From the NCBI GenBank assembly GCA_027263115.1, contig GCA_027263115.1_3656.1: 64,000 bases of DNA; one strand, 5' to 3'. Shown in pieces: positions 34,022-48,866 of the stretch. The first letter of the stretch is position 1; every line of letters begins with the position of its first letter. The notes under the pieces were generated by a model. That model did not search any database and was not told where the DNA came from. It saw only the letters and a list, made by a program, of their open reading frames with translations. Made by a program: the position numbers and the translations under genes. Source of the stretch: a phage.

Positions 34022-34211
34022 GCTTAAATCTGCATGGAACATCGCTGTGGGGGACGAGATCCGCATCCCAGGTGGAAAGACCATTATGAAGATATCACGT
34101 ATCGAGTATGAAGGTGATCGTGTATTTCATATCTTTGCAGAAGATGGTCGAGAAATTTATATACAGGCAGGCTCTCACATCTATATCCATAAGAAAGGGG
34201 ACGACAAATGA
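34014..34211 (+). CDS. hypothetical protein
   Basis: ATG after AAGGAGGG RBS. Confidence 0.45.
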   Translation: MFKLKSAWNIAVGDEIRIPGGKTIMKISRIEYEGDRVFHIFAEDGREIYIQAGSHIYIHKKGDDK

Positions 34212-34540
34212 CAGAGATCATCGTTTCAACTGCAGGGTATGTATTCCTGACAATCATTGCGTTGGCTATTCTGGTGGCGGTGTATGGATTTGTTATCCTG
34301 CCTATTCTTGAGACATTTAGCTTGTGTCGGTGTTGGAGAAAAGCTTACGGACCACAACCGTGGAAAGACTGGTTTCATTTGGTGCGTATAGCGTTCTCTT
34401 ATGCCTATGATCACTCCAGCAGTGCATGCGTAACCGGGTACCATGCCTACAACTGGAACTGGGAAGGGCTGGGGAGATGGACTGTTACAAAAACTATACC
34501 CTTACGGTTGTATAAAGGAAAGAACACACTGGGAGCCTGA
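34208..34540 (+). CDS. hypothetical membrane protein
   Basis: N-terminal hydrophobic helix VFLTIIALAILVAVYGFVILPIL. Confidence 0.5.
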   Translation: MTEIIVSTAGYVFLTIIALAILVAVYGFVILPILETFSLCRCWRKAYGPQPWKDWFHLVRIAFSYAYDHSSSACVTGYHAYNWNWEGLGRWTVTKTIPLRLYKGKNTLGA

Positions 34541-34570
34541 TATTTTAAGTTATCAGGTTGCCAGAGATCA

Positions 34571-34605
34571 GGAGGATTTCTAAAATGGATTTCCTCCTTT
34601 TGATA
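34571..34605 (+). terminator. intrinsic terminator
   Basis: ggagga...tcctcc hairpin followed by TTTT. Confidence 0.5.
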
Positions 34606-34839
34606 TTTTACCTACCAGGATATTTTAAAATCCTTAGAAAATCAGAAAATGGATCGAAAACTAAAATGGATTTTTCAGAGCAGGCACGACGAGATGAACC
34701 ACTCATCCTATCGTCTGCACCATATTCCAGACCACCATTACAGATTTCCCGCACATGCTCACACCCTTCTACTAGAACTTCCCCCACTTACCCTTGACCT
34801 TTTATAGTAATAATCCAACCACTACCTTGAAGTTGTGGC

Positions 34840-35110
34840 GCAGCTTTCCAAGTACTCGATCTGTTTTTCGTTTCAAAGATTGAATTTTCTGAAAATTTTT
34901 CTCGATAAATTTCTCAGTACTCGATCTGTTTTTCGTTTTCTGAATCTGATTTTCTGGAAATCGTTCCGGCTCTCGACCTGAAATTTTTGGGGACGAAATC
35001 GATTTTTCGTTTTCAGAAATGGATTTTTAAAATTTCTATATGGGAATATTTTAGTGGATACTATTTTATAGGAAATTGTTACGGAGGGTAATTAGCGTGC
35101 TAATTAAATT
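34840..35110. repeat. non-coding direct-repeat region
   Basis: 23-bp direct repeat agtactcgatctgtttttcgttt at 34851 and 34916; tttttcgttttc motifs; palindrome taattagcgtgctaatta at 35089-35106. Confidence 0.6.
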
Positions 35111-35175
35111 TATTAAATGCGAGGAGTTCTCATTTAGAATTTTGAATGATAATCATTCTCGTTTGCAGAATAACG

Positions 35176-35198
35176 GGCAGGCCCGGTGATTGTCTCCC
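35176..35198 (+). repeat. copy A of palindromic ggcaggcccggtgattgtctccc element
   Basis: 23 bp identical to the reverse complement of part of 44620-44662. Confidence 0.6.
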
Positions 35199-35314
35199 GG
35201 CCCCTACTGCCCCGGCTTGTTATTATAGTAACACACAGGACAAAGAAAGCAAGAAGTTTTTGCATAAATTTTTAGACGATAATGATAATCGTTCTCATTT
35301 CATGCAGCGCCCAT

Positions 35315-35351
35315 CCCCGGTGGTTGTCTCCCCCGTCACCGGTGCCTGCCG
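35315..35351 (+). repeat. copy B of the same palindromic element (right half)
   Basis: ccccggtggttgtctcccccgtcaccggtgcctgccg, about 90 percent identical to the reverse complement of 44620-44662. Confidence 0.55.
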
Positions 35352-35554
35352 TCCTTTCGATAGGTATATTTTGCCACCTGGCGGGGCCGCTGTCAACACT
35401 TTTCAAAAAAATTTCTAACCTGATGCGCTGACCGCTGCAACCTGGCGGGGCCAGCCTGGCAGGGCCTAACTGACCAGGTAGGAGAGAATGAAGGCTTGCA
35501 AACCTGGTGGGCCTATGCTATAGGATAGGTAACAATTGAAGAGGAGGTACAAAA

Positions 35555-35731
35555 ATGGAAGGTAATATGATCCCCCTGGAAAATGTAGCTATTAATGACG
35601 CTGAGGCTATCGCCCTGGTTGAAAAGGCTATGGCGGGAGCGTTGGAACATAAAGAAGAGTACGAAAAAATGATGGTTAACCTGGCAGGGGCGGCGGCTGG
35701 AGAATTCTACCCAAAAAATAATTTTAACTAA
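35555..35731 (+). CDS. small hypothetical protein (58 aa)
   Basis: ATG 8 nt after GAGGAGG; below the ORF-track length cutoff. Confidence 0.45.
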   Translation: MEGNMIPLENVAINDAEAIALVEKAMAGALEHKEEYEKMMVNLAGAAAGEFYPKNNFN

Positions 35732-42555: not shown

Positions 42556-42609
42556 ACCTGGCGGGGCCGAAAAGGCCCCAATTATGAAAATAAAGAGAGG
42601 TAAATCATC

Positions 42610-44560: not shown

Positions 44561-44578
44561 TATTTATAAACTACAAAA

Positions 44579-44606
44579 CAGGGCTTGCAATGGCCCTGTT
44601 TTTGTT
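44579..44606 (+). terminator. intrinsic terminator
   Basis: cagggc-ttgcaatg-gccctg hairpin followed by TTTTTG. Confidence 0.7.
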
Positions 44607-44619
44607 ATACTTATTCTAC

Positions 44620-44662
44620 GGCAGGCACCTGGCGACGGGGGGAGACAATCACCGGGCCTGCC
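44620..44662 (-). repeat. copy C (inverted, complete) of the palindromic ggcaggc...gcctgcc element
   Basis: reverse complement begins ggcaggcccggtgattgtctccc (identical to 35176-35198) and continues like 35315-35351. Confidence 0.6.
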
Positions 44663-44687
44663 TGTCATACAAGAACTATAAAAACCG

Positions 44688-46269: not shown

Positions 46270-46880
46270 GTCTGATCTTCCCCCTACCATAAACGGCCCT
46301 ACCTGGCAAGTGGAATAATTGACGAGCCATCAACCCCACACACTGTACAAATATACATGTAAAATAACTATTGCATAACTTTTCATTGTGTGGTAGCAGG
46401 GCTATTTTTACCCGTTTTTCCTTCCAAAATTGCACGTAATGCAGCTATTGCACAAAATTTAACCTGATGCATATCTTCAGTGTCTTGTCAACAACTAAAA
46501 ATCTTTATAAGTCATGCACTTACATAACCACAAAAGCGTGCTCTACGTGAAAAATCGAGTATAACTATAGCCGCCAGATCTCAGAATTTACGTACGCTCA
46601 CCATTCTATAGTCTGCTAAGTATTTATTCCAACCATAGAATAACGGAATAGTCAATACCTGCATAAAATAATTATTCGTGTAAACTGCATAACATAAATC
46701 AGCTTAGGTGTCAACATTTTTCGTAAACAGTCTGAAATTATCACGATGAGTTATCATAAACAGAGAAATCTTTAGTCGTCTAATGTTTACTGTACGTTAC
46801 TATACTAACTGAAATCATTAGATGACTAATAGAAAGATAAGAAATAATTAACAATACAATTATTTTATCTGTAACAATAA

Positions 46881-47166
46881 GGCAACTATGCAAACGAATG
46901 GCATGGCGCGACGGAGTCGCGACATAATATAAAAGCAGTAACCATCACCCCCGTGATAGTTTGTCTGCAATCTATTAATCAGATCATAGTTGCCTTGTAT
47001 TTAGTTAATCATGACATAACAAGCAAGGCAACTATAGATCTGCTAATAGTTGCCCTGCTTTTATATTATGTCATAGGAACGCCCGAAGGGGTGACCTAGT
47101 CACCTGGCATAGCCAGCGAAAGATTATTAACTTGGTAATAGTTATCATGCAAACGAATGGCATGGC
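46881..47166. repeat. nested inverted-repeat structure flanked by 20-bp direct repeats
   Basis: direct repeat atgcaaacgaatggcatggc at 46888 and 47147; 18-bp inverted repeat gacataatataaaagcag (46921) vs ctgcttttatattatgtc (47055); 12-bp inverted repeat atagttgccttg (46986) vs caaggcaactat (47024). Confidence 0.6.
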
Positions 47167-47177
47167 TTATCATCTCT

Positions 47178-47300
47178 GTGTAAACAGTCAATCATGTAAA
47201 CTATTAGATATGTAAACAGTAAAGGGCGTGAACAGTAAGCGAGGGAATAGTAATAGCGTGAATAGTGACAGCGTAAACAGTGACAGCGTAAACAGTCAGG
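47178..47300. repeat. iteron-like GTAAACAGT repeats
   Basis: at least six copies of GT(A/G)AA(C/T)AGT, including two tandem 15-bp units gacagcgtaaacagt at 47267-47296. Confidence 0.6.
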
Positions 47301-47400
47301 CATGTCAATTATGTCATATTGTGTCACCATTATGTCACTATTGTGTCACCAGTATGCCCAGTATGTCAATTGAGTCTAAAGTGTCAAAGGTGTCAGACAA
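47301..47400. repeat. 10-bp-periodic TGTCA tandem array
   Basis: about ten units (catgtcaatt, atgtcatatt, gtgtcaccat ...) each containing TGTCA or a near variant at helical-turn spacing. Confidence 0.6.
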
Positions 47401-47859
47401 GTTTTTCTCCTCTTTGTCAAGTGCTGCATGAAAAATTTACAAGCTTGTATGGTAGCATTTTTGCGGCCCGTTTACATTCAGTGATGTATGTATAACCCTT
47501 GTTGTGTGGGAGTTTAGACGTCTAGACGGTTGGAAGTCTGCAGGTCAATATCTAATCTATCGGCTGCTAACTATATCCCACACAAATAGTAAGAAATATA
47601 ATTGTTATATGTGTAAACAGTAACTCATGTTATCAATCCCTGTATGGATCGCCAGTGGTGCGCATAATGGGTATTATGTTAAATTGCCCGTAATGATAAC
47701 AGTTCTCACAATGATAGGTATTCTCATTCATCCACACAAAATAGGTTGCAAATGTTGTGCCACTGTGTGAACGGCCTGGCCTATTAATTTCTCTCACTGC
47801 CTCGATATTTGAGGATTGTTATAAGAATGAGAAGTATTCCCATTCCGTCCGCCTGGCAG

Positions 47860-48180
47860 CGCTCCTGTAGGTCCTGCAAGGACTCTAGCTGAAAGCTAGA
47901 CCCTTCGGGCCTCCCTGTAGGTCAGGTCAAAATCGTGGCAGAACTGAGCCTGTTCAGATATTTCTGGCTGACTCTTCAGGTCTGTGTGGGAAAAGCCAAC
48001 CTCTCCGGCGGGGCAGGGGAGGGAGGTAAATTAAAAAATTTACGTGGTGTATGAAGCGCTCTTCAGGTAAGGCAGGTATTATGTGATGAAACCCTCTTCA
48101 GGCAATGATATTTGTGGGTGTGATATTTGCTGGAAAGCCAGATATGACGGGACTCCCGGCGGGGCAGGGGTAGTACAGAC
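47860..48180. repeat. G-rich direct repeats
   Basis: CCGGCGGGGCAGGGG at 48004 and 48155; CCTGTAGGTC at 47864 and 47914; CTCTTCAGG at 47972, 48059, 48094 (also 48508 and 49156). Confidence 0.5.
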
Positions 48181-48866
48181 GGGGGAAATATGGGGATGTA
48201 GTTGGGGAAATTGATCAGGCAGGTAGAGTATGGAATATGTTACAAGTATGTTAAATATGGAGGTTGAATATCTGTAGGATTTGTGTGTAAAATCAAAGAC
48301 TTAAGTGGTGTTGTGGTATTTTCTATAAATAATTCAAGTTTAATAGGTAATATTTGCCTCTATCCACTTTGTGTGGTAAACAGATTCAGATGAGATTAGT
48401 TTACAAGTGTATACATAATATACAAATTAAAGATACAAGAAACCCCCCTCCCCCCTTCGGCTACCATTCACCTTTTCCTCTGACTGGTACTTAAACACTT
48501 ATTCAGACTCTTCAGGTTATCACCCATATATCATATGGCAGTGACTGGTGTCCTCCGGCCCCTCTTTCGTCACCCGTCCGCTTCGCCATGCTAATGCCAT
48601 AGCTAATGGTTCGGTTGTTCACCCTGTTCACTCAGGTGTATCTCTATACCCCTTCAAACCGAAGAGAACAGAAAACCCGAATTACTCGGTAAAAGAAAAG
48701 AGAAGAACTTAATTTTATCAGGATAGGCAAGAATGTCAAGGCATGACTGCTCACTAAACAAGCAAACAGTCATGTGTGGGAGGTAAGTGATTGTGGTGGT
48801 AGGAAATTTAGTTGAAAGATGTGTTATAGGTGCTTCCAGCACTTTAGCCGGGCAGCTAATTGTGTG

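What the first reader, a model, noticed from the sequence alone, without database searches (positions are those of the whole stretch)
34840..35500. Non-coding repeat block between the replication module and the small-gene array
Contains a 23-bp direct repeat (34851 and 34916), several tttttcgttttc motifs, AAATGGATTT repeated four times around 34580-35010, an 18-bp palindrome taattagcgtgctaatta (35089-35106), and two imperfect 50-bp direct repeats (35144-35200 and 35283-35340). The apparent 90-aa ORF here is a repeat artefact. The region likely holds operator or enhancer-like sites controlling early transcription.
Basis: seen in the sequence. Interest (0 to 1): 0.45.

Follow-up and report, generated by a model that had tools for sequence, protein, structure and literature searches.

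The report
Conserved essential non-coding phage control module
A ~600-bp stretch of an rV5-like E. coli phage that databases annotate as three small genes is a conserved non-coding module (an AT-rich repeat array plus two promoter/leader/Fur-box units); published transposon data show the phage barely tolerates disrupting it, and it most likely acts as a transcription-activated replication origin.

Summary
The repeats are real, at the stated coordinates and above chance. The window is an rV5-like Vequintavirus. The block (about 34850-35460) is non-coding. Its three annotated ORFs have no coding signature, and outside the genus the reading frames end after 6-26 codons while the DNA stays conserved. 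Anatomy: (i) three iteron-like AT-rich units (34849-35054), conserved in five genera; (ii) an AT-rich core (35028-35089); (iii) two tandem units on the minus strand, each a sigma70-type promoter, a ~55-nt G-rich leader and then a Fur-box palindrome (17/19 and 15/19 to the E. coli consensus). A third promoter-leader unit lies at 44585-44667 on the plus strand. Published transposon sequencing of Bas54 found 0 of 11 TA sites hit in the core ('essential'), 5 of 15 in the Fur/leader units and 1 of 3 in iteron units 1-2, while the flanking genes are freely hit. Best explanation (confidence 0.4): a transcription-activated replication origin resembling the T7 primary origin, with Fur-type sites as an added layer. 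Rivals: small or leader RNAs, an early-transcription operator or insulator, and a DNA-entry checkpoint. RNA structure is not statistically supported, and Fur binding is inferred only.

The parts
34570..34610 (+). Intrinsic terminator of the upstream gene: AGGAGGA...TCCTCCT hairpin followed by a T-run. It marks the left border of the non-coding region.
   Evidence: Fold -15.1 kcal/mol, z = -2.5; conserved in 9 Vequintavirus genomes.
34600..34680 (.). Conserved block carrying AAATGGATTT-type short repeats (34583, 34648, 34664).
   Evidence: 0.91-0.99 mean pairwise identity in 34580-34659 within the genus, next to variable sequence. Related GAAATGGTTTT repeats occur in Seuna- and Mydovirus.
34680..34848 (.). 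Variable spacer with 1-2 nt indels (not constrained).
   Evidence: 0.68-0.81 mean pairwise identity (40-nt bins 34660-34859) and frame-breaking indels.
34849..34913 (.). Iteron-like unit 1 (GTACTCGATC head, T-rich tract, short palindrome).
   Evidence: three-unit arrays with 65-76 nt spacing in Vequinta-, Seuna-, Mydo-, Henuna- and Certrevirus.
34914..34987 (.). Iteron-like unit 2.
   Evidence: Corresponds to bas54_0100 together with unit 1: 1 of 3 TA sites hit, mean count 5 against about 200 in neighbours.
34988..35054 (.). Iteron-like unit 3 (degenerate head; CGAAATCGATTTTTCG palindrome).
35028..35089 (.). AT-rich core that tolerates no transposon insertion.
   Evidence: All 11 TA sites of bas54_0101 (= window 34987-35091) lie here, with 0 of 11 hit, called 'Essential'. 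It lies inside the third least stable 200-nt duplex window of the 64 kb.
35075..35103 (-). Possible leftward promoter P0: TTAGCA-17-AACAAT. The -35 lies in the right arm of the palindrome.
   Evidence: Read from sequence. Hexamers are kept and the spacer varies within the genus. A stronger equivalent (TTGACA-18-GAAAAT) exists in Seunavirus but none in CB7, so this is tentative.
35089..35106 (.). 18-bp palindrome TAATTAGCGTGCTAATTA.
35142..35160 (.). Fur-box-like palindrome 1: TTGAATGATAATCATTCTC (15/19 to GATAATGATAATCATTATC).
   Evidence: Invariant core in 12 aligned sequences from 7 genera.
35163..35218 (-). G-rich leader 1 (sense strand reads ...GGGAGACAATCACCGGGCCTGCCCGTTATTC).
   Evidence: Hairpin potential -21.6 kcal/mol but z only -0.6.
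35225..35252 (-). Promoter P1: TTGCTT-16-(TGT)TACTAT.
   Evidence: Positionally conserved sigma70-type hexamers with diverging spacers in all genera. Weak in Vequintavirus (score 8).
35278..35296 (.). Fur-box-like palindrome 2: GATAATGATAATCGTTCTC (17/19; best match in the window).
35298..35361 (-). G-rich leader 2 (ACGGCAGGCACCGGTGACGGGGGAGACAACCACCGGGG...).
   Evidence: z = -1.8.
35368..35396 (-). Promoter P2: TTGACA-17-CAAAAT with TGn.
   Evidence: Conserved in every genus examined, for example ESCO13 TTGACA-17-TATACT. Score 11, within the top 5% of null windows.
35400..35525 (.). Variable spacer with ACCTGGCGGGGCC repeats and large indels. It contains a likely rightward promoter for the first early gene (TTGCAA at 35496).
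44585..44667 (+). Third promoter-leader unit on the opposite strand: TTGCAA-15-(TGT)TATACT inside a terminator, then ACGGCAGGCACCTGGCGACGGGGGGAGACAATCACCGGGCCTGCC.
   Evidence: Conserved in other genera, where Fur-like boxes follow it. z = -3.0.

Best explanation
The block is a conserved, non-coding, cis-acting module, not a set of genes. Host sigma70 RNA polymerase starts at two tandem promoters, P2 and P1 (and possibly a third, P0), on the minus strand. It transcribes a ~55-nt G-rich leader, crosses a Fur-type palindrome, and runs leftward into an easily melted AT-rich core and a three-unit iteron-like array. I think this is a transcription-activated origin of replication, built like the phage T7 primary origin (tandem promoters firing into an AT-rich segment at the inner edge of the early region) or like T4 oriF/oriG. 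The transcript would open or prime the AT-rich core. The iterons and palindromes would bind accessory proteins, with host Fur the best candidate for the palindromes. Shown: non-coding status, conservation, the Fur-consensus match, promoter hexamers and their direction, low duplex stability, and intolerance to transposon insertion. Inferred: actual transcription, Fur binding, and any role in replication.
For: The module is non-coding yet near-invariant within the genus (0.88-0.99 identity against 0.68-0.81 in the flank). The core is conserved at 72-88% DNA identity in other genera of Vequintavirinae and in Phapecoctavirus, always unannotated. It is absent from E. coli and from about 186,000 bacterial species genomes except one 4-kb MAG contig. 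Sigma70-type hexamers sit at a fixed distance upstream of the leader in 49 copies; mean score is 9.4 against 7.9 on the opposite side and 6.6 for null windows. The third copy on the other strand fixes the sense strand. Three-unit iteron arrays with 65-76 nt phasing, a GGTWCTCGATC head, A6T5 tracts and excess GATC occur in five genera. 34973-35172 is the third least stable 200-nt window of the 64 kb (z about +3), and the strand composition is inverted relative to the flanks. HIDEN-SEQ on Bas54 found 0/11 TA sites hit in the AT-rich core, 5/15 in the duplicated promoter/leader/Fur part (consistent with redundancy) and 1/3 in iteron units 1-2, against 18/21 and 12/14 in the flanking genes. The module follows the replication genes, and rV5 encodes T7-type primase-helicase and DNA polymerase (PMC3606486).
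Against: There is no direct replication evidence. GC skew follows transcription and gives no origin signal. No DnaA or IHF sites are present. No initiator-like gene is adjacent. A second insertion-free non-coding region (window ~46.4-48.6 kb) is even more AT-rich and could be the origin instead. The third promoter-leader unit sits in an ordinary intergenic gap without iterons, so the unit itself may serve gene expression. Fur boxes are not a known origin component. P1 is a weak promoter in Vequintavirus. The transposon result could partly reflect polar effects on early genes.
Confidence: 0.4

Rival explanations
1. Small or leader RNA genes. Each promoter-leader unit makes a short structured RNA. 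This could be a trans-acting sRNA, a 5' stabiliser, or a put-like or boxA-like antitermination leader. The Fur site would either block elongation or belong to a Fur-repressed antisense promoter, giving tandem iron-responsive RNAs reminiscent of Pseudomonas PrrF1/PrrF2.
For: Promoters lie at a fixed distance from a conserved ~55-nt segment in three paralogous copies and in all genera. Copy 3 folds significantly (z = -3.0) and has a U.G pair valid only on the sense strand. In relatives a plus-strand terminator with G.U pairs and one compensatory change follows a conserved anti-SD-like block.
Against: No Rfam family matches. No terminator follows the leaders. Hairpin z-scores average only -1.0 on the sense strand and -0.6 on the antisense strand, and RNAalifold finds no consensus structure. 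Plus-strand promoters overlapping the Fur boxes are not conserved: the -10 lacks A2 in Mydovirus and CB7, and is GATAAC in 4 of 9 Vequintavirus genomes. The transposon-intolerant core is the AT-rich stretch, not the leaders.
Confidence: 0.2
2. An operator or insulator region for early transcription. Palindromes and repeats bind host Fur or a phage regulator. Weak tandem terminators and opposing promoters would separate the replication module from the early array and tune the first early genes.
For: The block lies at the boundary of the two modules. Fur-type palindromes are the most conserved element. Each iteron unit contains an AU-rich hairpin plus a T-run. The first early gene downstream shows intermediate fitness effects.
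Against: The conserved promoters point away from the early genes, and each early gene has its own promoter. Insertions in the block are more harmful than insertions in the downstream genes. The conserved GGTWCTCGATC heads are not explained by terminators.
Confidence: 0.15
3. A DNA-entry checkpoint. The ~11-kb early array (about 8% of the genome) lies between the genome terminus and this block. The block could act like the phage T5 injection stop signal, and its leftward promoters could pull in the rest of the genome as in T7.
For: In Mydovirus KPP-1 a 514-bp terminal repeat lies in the other non-coding gap, about 10.5 kb from the module, and the module's promoters point away from it. Both gaps resist transposon insertion. 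Vequintaviruses share with T5-like phages a high sensitivity to DNA intercalators (PMC13250531).
Against: The terminus type in Vequintavirus is unsettled: one PhageTerm report infers headful packaging with partial permutation (PMC13211470). GenBank records break at different points. A transposon should not stop RNA polymerase from pulling DNA, yet insertions are lethal.
Confidence: 0.1
4. The annotated ORFs (bas54_0100-0102; rV5 ORF198) are real small proteins, one of them essential.
For: The ORFs are open in most Vequintavirus genomes, and HIDEN-SEQ scores bas54_0101 as an essential gene.
Against: Synonymous:non-synonymous counts are 8:36, 5:20 and 4:11, no better than the off-frames. For two ORFs the annotated frame does not have the best codon-usage score, and for the third it scores about 0. 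Two start with GTG or TTG, and none has a Shine-Dalgarno sequence. The ORFs are truncated in HMD-6, FV3 and EdH4 and are not conserved outside the genus although the DNA is.
Confidence: 0.05

Closest known systems
Phage T7 primary origin of replication (tandem promoters phi1.1A/phi1.1B followed by an AT-rich segment)
   Same: Tandem promoters fire into an AT-rich segment at the inner edge of the early region. No gene is needed downstream. The phage encodes T7-type primase-helicase and DNA polymerase (rV5 paper).
   Different: The promoters here are of host sigma70 type. An iteron-like array and Fur-type palindromes are added. The T7 origin is dispensable because secondary origins exist, whereas this block is nearly essential. 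No replication data exist here. The T7 details are from my own knowledge.
Phage T4 oriF/oriG and ColE1-type R-loop origins
   Same: A promoter followed within ~50-100 bp by an easily unwound segment, with a G-rich RNA that could form a persistent hybrid.
   Different: No sequence similarity. T4 origins are redundant. R-loop formation was not tested.
Iteron-type origins (phage lambda ori, plasmid origins)
   Same: Phased direct repeats next to an AT-rich region, with excess GATC sites.
   Different: Units are 65-76 bp apart rather than ~22 bp. There are only three units. No initiator gene is adjacent and no DnaA boxes are present.
Enterobacterial Fur boxes (e.g. aerobactin iucA, ryhB) and the tandem Fur-repressed sRNAs PrrF1/PrrF2
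   Same: 17/19 and 15/19 matches to the 19-bp consensus. The 7-1-7 palindrome uses TGATAAT or TGAGAAT half-sites. Two units lie in tandem.
   Different: The boxes lie +58 to +83 downstream of the conserved promoters rather than over a -35 or -10. There is no sequence similarity to RyhB or PrrF. The setting is a virulent phage. Binding was not tested.
Phage T5 injection stop signal
   Same: A non-coding, repeat- and palindrome-rich region bounding a terminal ~8% block of early genes.
   Different: T5 has long terminal repeats and proven two-step transfer. Neither has been shown for Vequintavirus.

Membership tests
Fur box (Fur operator) | Match to the 19-bp consensus GATAATGATAATCATTATC / the 7-1-7 palindrome TGATAAT-N-ATTATCA | tested here: met
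   17/19 at 35278 and 15/19 at 35142, the best two matches in 64 kb (about 0.45 sites with >=15/19 expected in shuffles). Phage 4MG carries the perfect TGATAATCATTATCA.
Fur box (Fur operator) | Overlaps the -35/-10 of the promoter it represses | tested here: inconclusive
   The boxes lie +58 to +83 from the P1 and P2 starts. Candidate plus-strand promoters over the boxes are not conserved across genera.
Fur box (Fur operator) | Bound by Fe2+-Fur, with iron-dependent regulation | not testable with these tools
   Needs EMSA or footprinting, a Fur titration assay, or infection of a fur mutant.
Replication origin (transcription-activated or iteron type) | AT-rich, easily unwound segment | tested here: met
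   34973-35172 is the third least stable 200-nt window (z about +3); 33% GC in 34840-35130.
Replication origin (transcription-activated or iteron type) | Phased direct repeats (iterons) conserved among relatives | tested here: met
   Three units with 65-76 nt spacing in five genera.
Replication origin (transcription-activated or iteron type) | Promoter(s) directed into the unwound segment | tested here: met
   P2, P1 and possibly P0 on the minus strand. These are consensus matches only; transcription was not measured.
Replication origin (transcription-activated or iteron type) | Required in cis for propagation | tested here: met
   From published data: 0/11 TA sites hit in the core, 5/15 and 1/3 in the flanking parts of the module. 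This does not prove a replication role.
Replication origin (transcription-activated or iteron type) | Mapped initiation of DNA synthesis, or autonomous replication | not testable with these tools
   No data available.
Replication origin (transcription-activated or iteron type) | Host DnaA/IHF sites or an adjacent initiator gene | tested here: not met
   No DnaA or IHF consensus in 34540-35560. Neighbouring proteins have unknown function. Not obligatory for phage origins.
Structured small RNA | Membership of a described RNA family | tested here: not met
   No Rfam hit at gathering score or at E<=1 in the window or in relatives.
Structured small RNA | Secondary structure beyond composition, or covariation | tested here: inconclusive
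   Mean z is -1.0 (sense) and -0.6 (antisense). Only copy 3 and some Certrevirus copies are significant, and there is no alifold consensus.
Structured small RNA | Own promoter and terminator | tested here: inconclusive
   A promoter is present. No terminator follows the leaders.
Protein-coding gene (rV5 ORF198 / bas54_0100-0102) | Purifying selection on the protein, codon usage, and conservation of the frame | tested here: not met

The most novel reading that the evidence does not exclude
Virulent rV5-like phages (Vequintavirinae and Phapecoctavirus) carry an essential non-coding element in which host-Fur operators are wired to leftward, gene-less promoters and an iteron/AT-rich core. Through it the phage would couple the start of genome replication, or completion of genome entry, to the host's iron status. 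The same palindromes mark the terminal-repeat region, which suggests one protein organises both essential non-coding loci.
Probability: 0.15. Interest if true: 0.8.

Novelty: new variant of a known kind. Interest (0 to 1): 0.62.

Why it matters
rV5-like phages are among the most commonly isolated, broad-host-range E. coli phages and are candidates for therapy, yet their origin of replication and early control circuits are unknown. This analysis reassigns an 'essential hypothetical gene' from a genome-wide transposon screen to a non-coding cis element. It defines the parts of that element to the nucleotide and shows that it is shared across several genera. It also gives direct experiments. If host Fur binds the palindromes, this would be a rare case of a virulent phage reading host iron status through an essential element. 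The result also cautions against engineering insertions at this site, and suggests the three annotated ORFs should be removed from annotations.

Tried and rejected
- **Rfam:** nothing in the window or in relatives. There are no tRNAs in the window.
- **Captured host locus:** nothing similar in E. coli genomes, and only one MAG contig among bacterial genomes.
- **Plus-strand Fur-repressed sRNAs:** I favoured this first, but dropped it to a rival. The -10 is not conserved, the third copy fixes the opposite sense strand, and there is no terminator.
- **Conserved RNA hairpin:** pairing looks good by eye, but z-scores and RNAalifold do not support it.
- **Bidirectional terminator:** rejected because the loop and 3' arm, not the stem, are the conserved parts, and the U-tracts are poor.
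- **Adjacent initiator gene:** the ~275-aa protein upstream in relatives has no known domain and no homologue in the window.
- **Minus-strand small ORFs of relatives:** absent from the window.
- **This block as the genome terminus:** rejected. The KPP-1 terminal repeat maps to the other gap.
- **Parsing error corrected:** I first mis-assigned the HIDEN-SEQ IDs by one row. TA-site counts in the window (3, 11, 15, 14) fixed the mapping.
- **Per-site transposon counts:** not held for these coordinates.
- **Literature:** no Fur-box, origin or transcriptome report was found for this phage group.

Full report
**Context**

The window is an rV5-like E. coli myovirus of the genus Vequintavirus, 99.6% identical to phages bov10K2 and JeffSchatz/Bas55 over the region. 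The finding lies in a ~1-kb gap between a 110-aa gene ending at 34540 and a 58-aa gene starting at 35555. To the left are replication-module genes. To the right is an array of small early genes, each with sigma70-type promoters and terminators.

**Observation**

- The 23-nt repeat is exact at 34851 and 34916.
- TTTTTCGTTTTC is exact twice, with one degenerate copy.
- AAATGGATTT is exact three times, not four.
- The 18-bp palindrome is at 35089-35106.
- The two imperfect repeats are at 35145-35198 and 35281-35332.

All are above chance expectation.

**The block is non-coding**

Databases annotate three ORFs here: 34835-34981, 34987-35091 and 35146-35418 (the last is rV5 ORF198).
- In nine Vequintavirus genomes, synonymous:non-synonymous changes are 8:36, 5:20 and 4:11, no better than the off-frames.
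- Codon-usage scores are about 0 or lower in the annotated frame, against 0.22-0.46 bits per codon for real small neighbours.
- The 90-aa frame is cut to 40 aa in EdH4 and has variable ends. The 34-aa frame is truncated in HMD-6 and FV3.
- Outside the genus the frame starting in the Fur box ends after 6-7 codons (Phapecoctavirus, Mydovirus) or 26 codons (Seunavirus), while the DNA beyond the stop stays conserved.

**Conservation**

Within the genus, 34680-34850 is variable (0.68-0.81 identity, with indels). 34860-35460 is near-invariant (0.88-0.99). 35460-35525 carries large indels. Across genera, blastn detects only the segment around 35109-35253, at 72-88% identity. It appears in Seuna-, Mydo-, Certre-, Henuna- and Phapecoctavirus, always in an unannotated gap. 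The element is absent from E. coli genomes, and among about 186,000 bacterial species genomes it occurs in only one 4-kb MAG contig. Rfam has nothing.

**Fur-type palindromes**

The heads of the two '50-bp repeats' are GATAATGATAATCGTTCTC (17/19 to the E. coli Fur consensus) and TTGAATGATAATCATTCTC (15/19). These are the two best matches in the 64 kb; shuffles give about 0.45 sites at 15/19 or better. Relatives have one to four such sites in tandem. Variation swaps TGATAAT and TGAGAAT half-sites. Phage 4MG has the perfect 7-1-7 consensus, and most copies are imperfect palindromes. This behaviour fits a protein-binding site and not an RNA stem. In about 280 kb of held phage DNA, 35 of 38 sites with at least 15/19 lie 38-45 nt from the leader motif. 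That Fur is the binding protein rests only on the consensus match and on the shared Fur consensus of the enterobacterial hosts.

**Promoter-leader units and their strand**

Next to each palindrome is a conserved GC-rich segment, GGTGWTTGTCTC on the plus strand. A third copy lies at 44618-44667 in the opposite orientation. It sits directly downstream of an extended -10 promoter embedded in a terminator. That copy is also conserved in other genera, where Fur-like boxes follow it.

Read on the strand carrying GAGACAAYCACC, every copy has sigma70-type hexamers at a fixed distance upstream, with diverging spacers. Mean promoter score is 9.4, against 7.9 on the opposite side and 6.6 for null windows. 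So the two units in the finding are minus-sense:
- P2 at 35396-35368 (TTGACA-17-CAAAAT).
- P1 at 35252-35225 (TTGCTT-16-TACTAT, weaker).
- Possibly P0 at 35103-35075.

The Fur boxes lie +58 to +83 from the predicted starts. Candidate plus-strand promoters overlapping the boxes are not conserved.

Hairpins can be drawn in every lineage, but they are not statistically supported. Mean z is -1.0 on the sense strand and -0.6 on the antisense strand.

**Iteron-like array**

The 23-nt repeat is the head of a three-unit array (34849, 34914, 34988). Seuna-, Mydo-, Henuna- and Certrevirus have the same arrangement left of their Fur boxes. They show three units 65-76 nt apart, with consensus GGTWCTCGATC-N3-TTTTC...AWCGTATTTTTTCT...AAAAAATTTTT, and GATC at 2-6 per ~220 nt against ~0.7 expected. 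The plus strand of 34840-35130 is the most T-rich stretch in the plus-coded part of the window. 34973-35172 is the third least stable 200-nt duplex window. There are no DnaA or IHF sites, and neighbouring proteins are of unknown function.

**Experimental evidence from the literature**

The HIDEN-SEQ preprint (10.1101/2025.11.20.689424) mapped mariner insertions in the Vequintavirus Bas54. I first mis-read the ID column. I corrected the mapping with TA-site counts: the four consecutive ORFs in the window have 3, 11, 15 and 14 TA sites, matching bas54_0100 to bas54_0103.

| Bas54 ID | Window coordinates | Content | TA sites hit | Call |
|---|---|---|---|---|
| bas54_0099 | 34208-34540 | upstream gene | 18/21 | non-essential |
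| bas54_0100 | 34835-34981 | iteron units 1-2 | 1/3 (about 40-fold fewer reads) | NA |
| bas54_0101 | 34987-35091 | unit 3 and AT-rich core (all TA sites at 35028-35089) | 0/11 | Essential |
| bas54_0102 | 35146-35424 | both Fur/leader/promoter units | 5/15 | strong fitness defect |
| bas54_0103 | 35555-35731 | first early gene | 12/14 | intermediate |

The next genes to the right are non-essential. The conserved non-coding block is therefore fitness-critical, with an absolutely intolerant AT-rich core.

**Genome geometry**

A second insertion-free non-coding region (bas54_0134/0135; window ~46.4-48.6 kb) is the most AT-rich part of the window and carries four further Fur-like palindromes. In Mydovirus KPP-1 a 514-bp direct terminal repeat, supported by coverage and PhageTerm, lies in the equivalent gap. 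It is about 10.5 kb from the module and is surrounded by Fur-like palindromes. So the ~11-kb early array lies between the terminus region and this module, and the module's promoters point away from the terminus. For Vequintavirus itself the terminus is not settled.

**Interpretation**

One model explains most features together. The features are gene-less tandem promoters, a G-rich leader, an AT-rich intolerant core, phased iterons, a position next to T7-type replication genes at the inner edge of the early region, and partial tolerance of insertions in the duplicated promoter part. That model is a transcription-activated replication origin of the T7 primary-origin or T4 oriF/G type (confidence 0.4). 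The Fur-type sites are an unexplained extra layer. Fur binding is likely from the sequence, but its role is open: a gate, an architectural factor, or a site for a phage protein.

Rivals:
- Small or leader RNAs (0.2).
- An early-transcription operator or insulator (0.15).
- A DNA-entry checkpoint (0.1).
- Real coding genes (0.05).

None of the literature searches found a description of this element.

Noticed in passing
window 46400-48600: A second large non-coding gap at the strand switch. It holds the two least stable 200-nt windows of the 64 kb (46668-46867, 48235-48434), four Fur-like palindromes (47133, 47694, 47712, 47828) and several leftward promoter-like sites. It corresponds to the ~2-kb Bas54 gap with no transposon insertions and to the region that holds the 514-bp terminal repeat in Mydovirus KPP-1. 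GenBank records bov10K2, EdH4 and slur16 are linearised inside it.
   Followed up: partly
window 44585-44667: A third promoter-leader unit on the plus strand. Its -35 sits in the loop of a bidirectional terminator (44575-44602). It is conserved in Phapecoctavirus, Seunavirus and Certrevirus, and Fur-like boxes follow it in the last two.
   Followed up: yes
L005:1660-1775 and equivalents in L006-L012 (not in the window): Relatives carry a very conserved 'block 2' (CTACCGGCGATCCACCTTCC...). It ends in a plus-strand terminator whose G.U pairs work only on that strand, with one compensatory change, and it contains an anti-Shine-Dalgarno-like GATCCACCTTCC. This is a candidate sRNA. In Vequintavirus the second Fur/leader unit takes its place.
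   Followed up: partly
L005:1817-2008, L012:1820-2086 and equivalents: Two families of small minus-strand proteins (MENxKVxxSETMVTL..., and ...LGWQGGTVHQVA...) flank the module in other genera. The window has no homologue of either.
   Followed up: yes
window 35180-35181: An AGG/ACC dimorphism (GGCAGGCCCGG versus GGCACCCCCGG) recurs within Vequintavirus and in several other genera without any compensating change.
   Followed up: no
window 35376-35691 and 42556: ACCTGGCGGGGCC occurs five times in the window (0.47 expected). The copy at 42556 is half of a GGGGCC-GAAAA-GGCCCC hairpin. The copies at 35376-35466 lie in an indel-prone spacer.
   Followed up: partly
window 44222: A 15/19 Fur-consensus match (GAGAAAGATAATCATCACC) lies inside an ORF 411 nt upstream of the third unit. 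It is conserved in EdH4 (16/19).
   Followed up: no
phage database records: About 17-22 records named 'Campylobacter phage' are 95-99% identical to E. coli rV5-like phages over this region. They are probably mislabelled or come from contaminating coliphages.
   Followed up: no
L038 (JAEZZU010000352.1): A 4-kb contig binned as 'Proteobacteria bacterium' MAG carries the phage core element. It is probably phage DNA in a MAG.
   Followed up: no
relatives L035-L037 and L005-L012: The motif TCTTTACAA(A/T) recurs on the gene-sense strand just upstream of several rightward promoters or terminators in relatives, and in tandem between P1 and block 2. In the window it occurs only at 224 and 61760.
   Followed up: no
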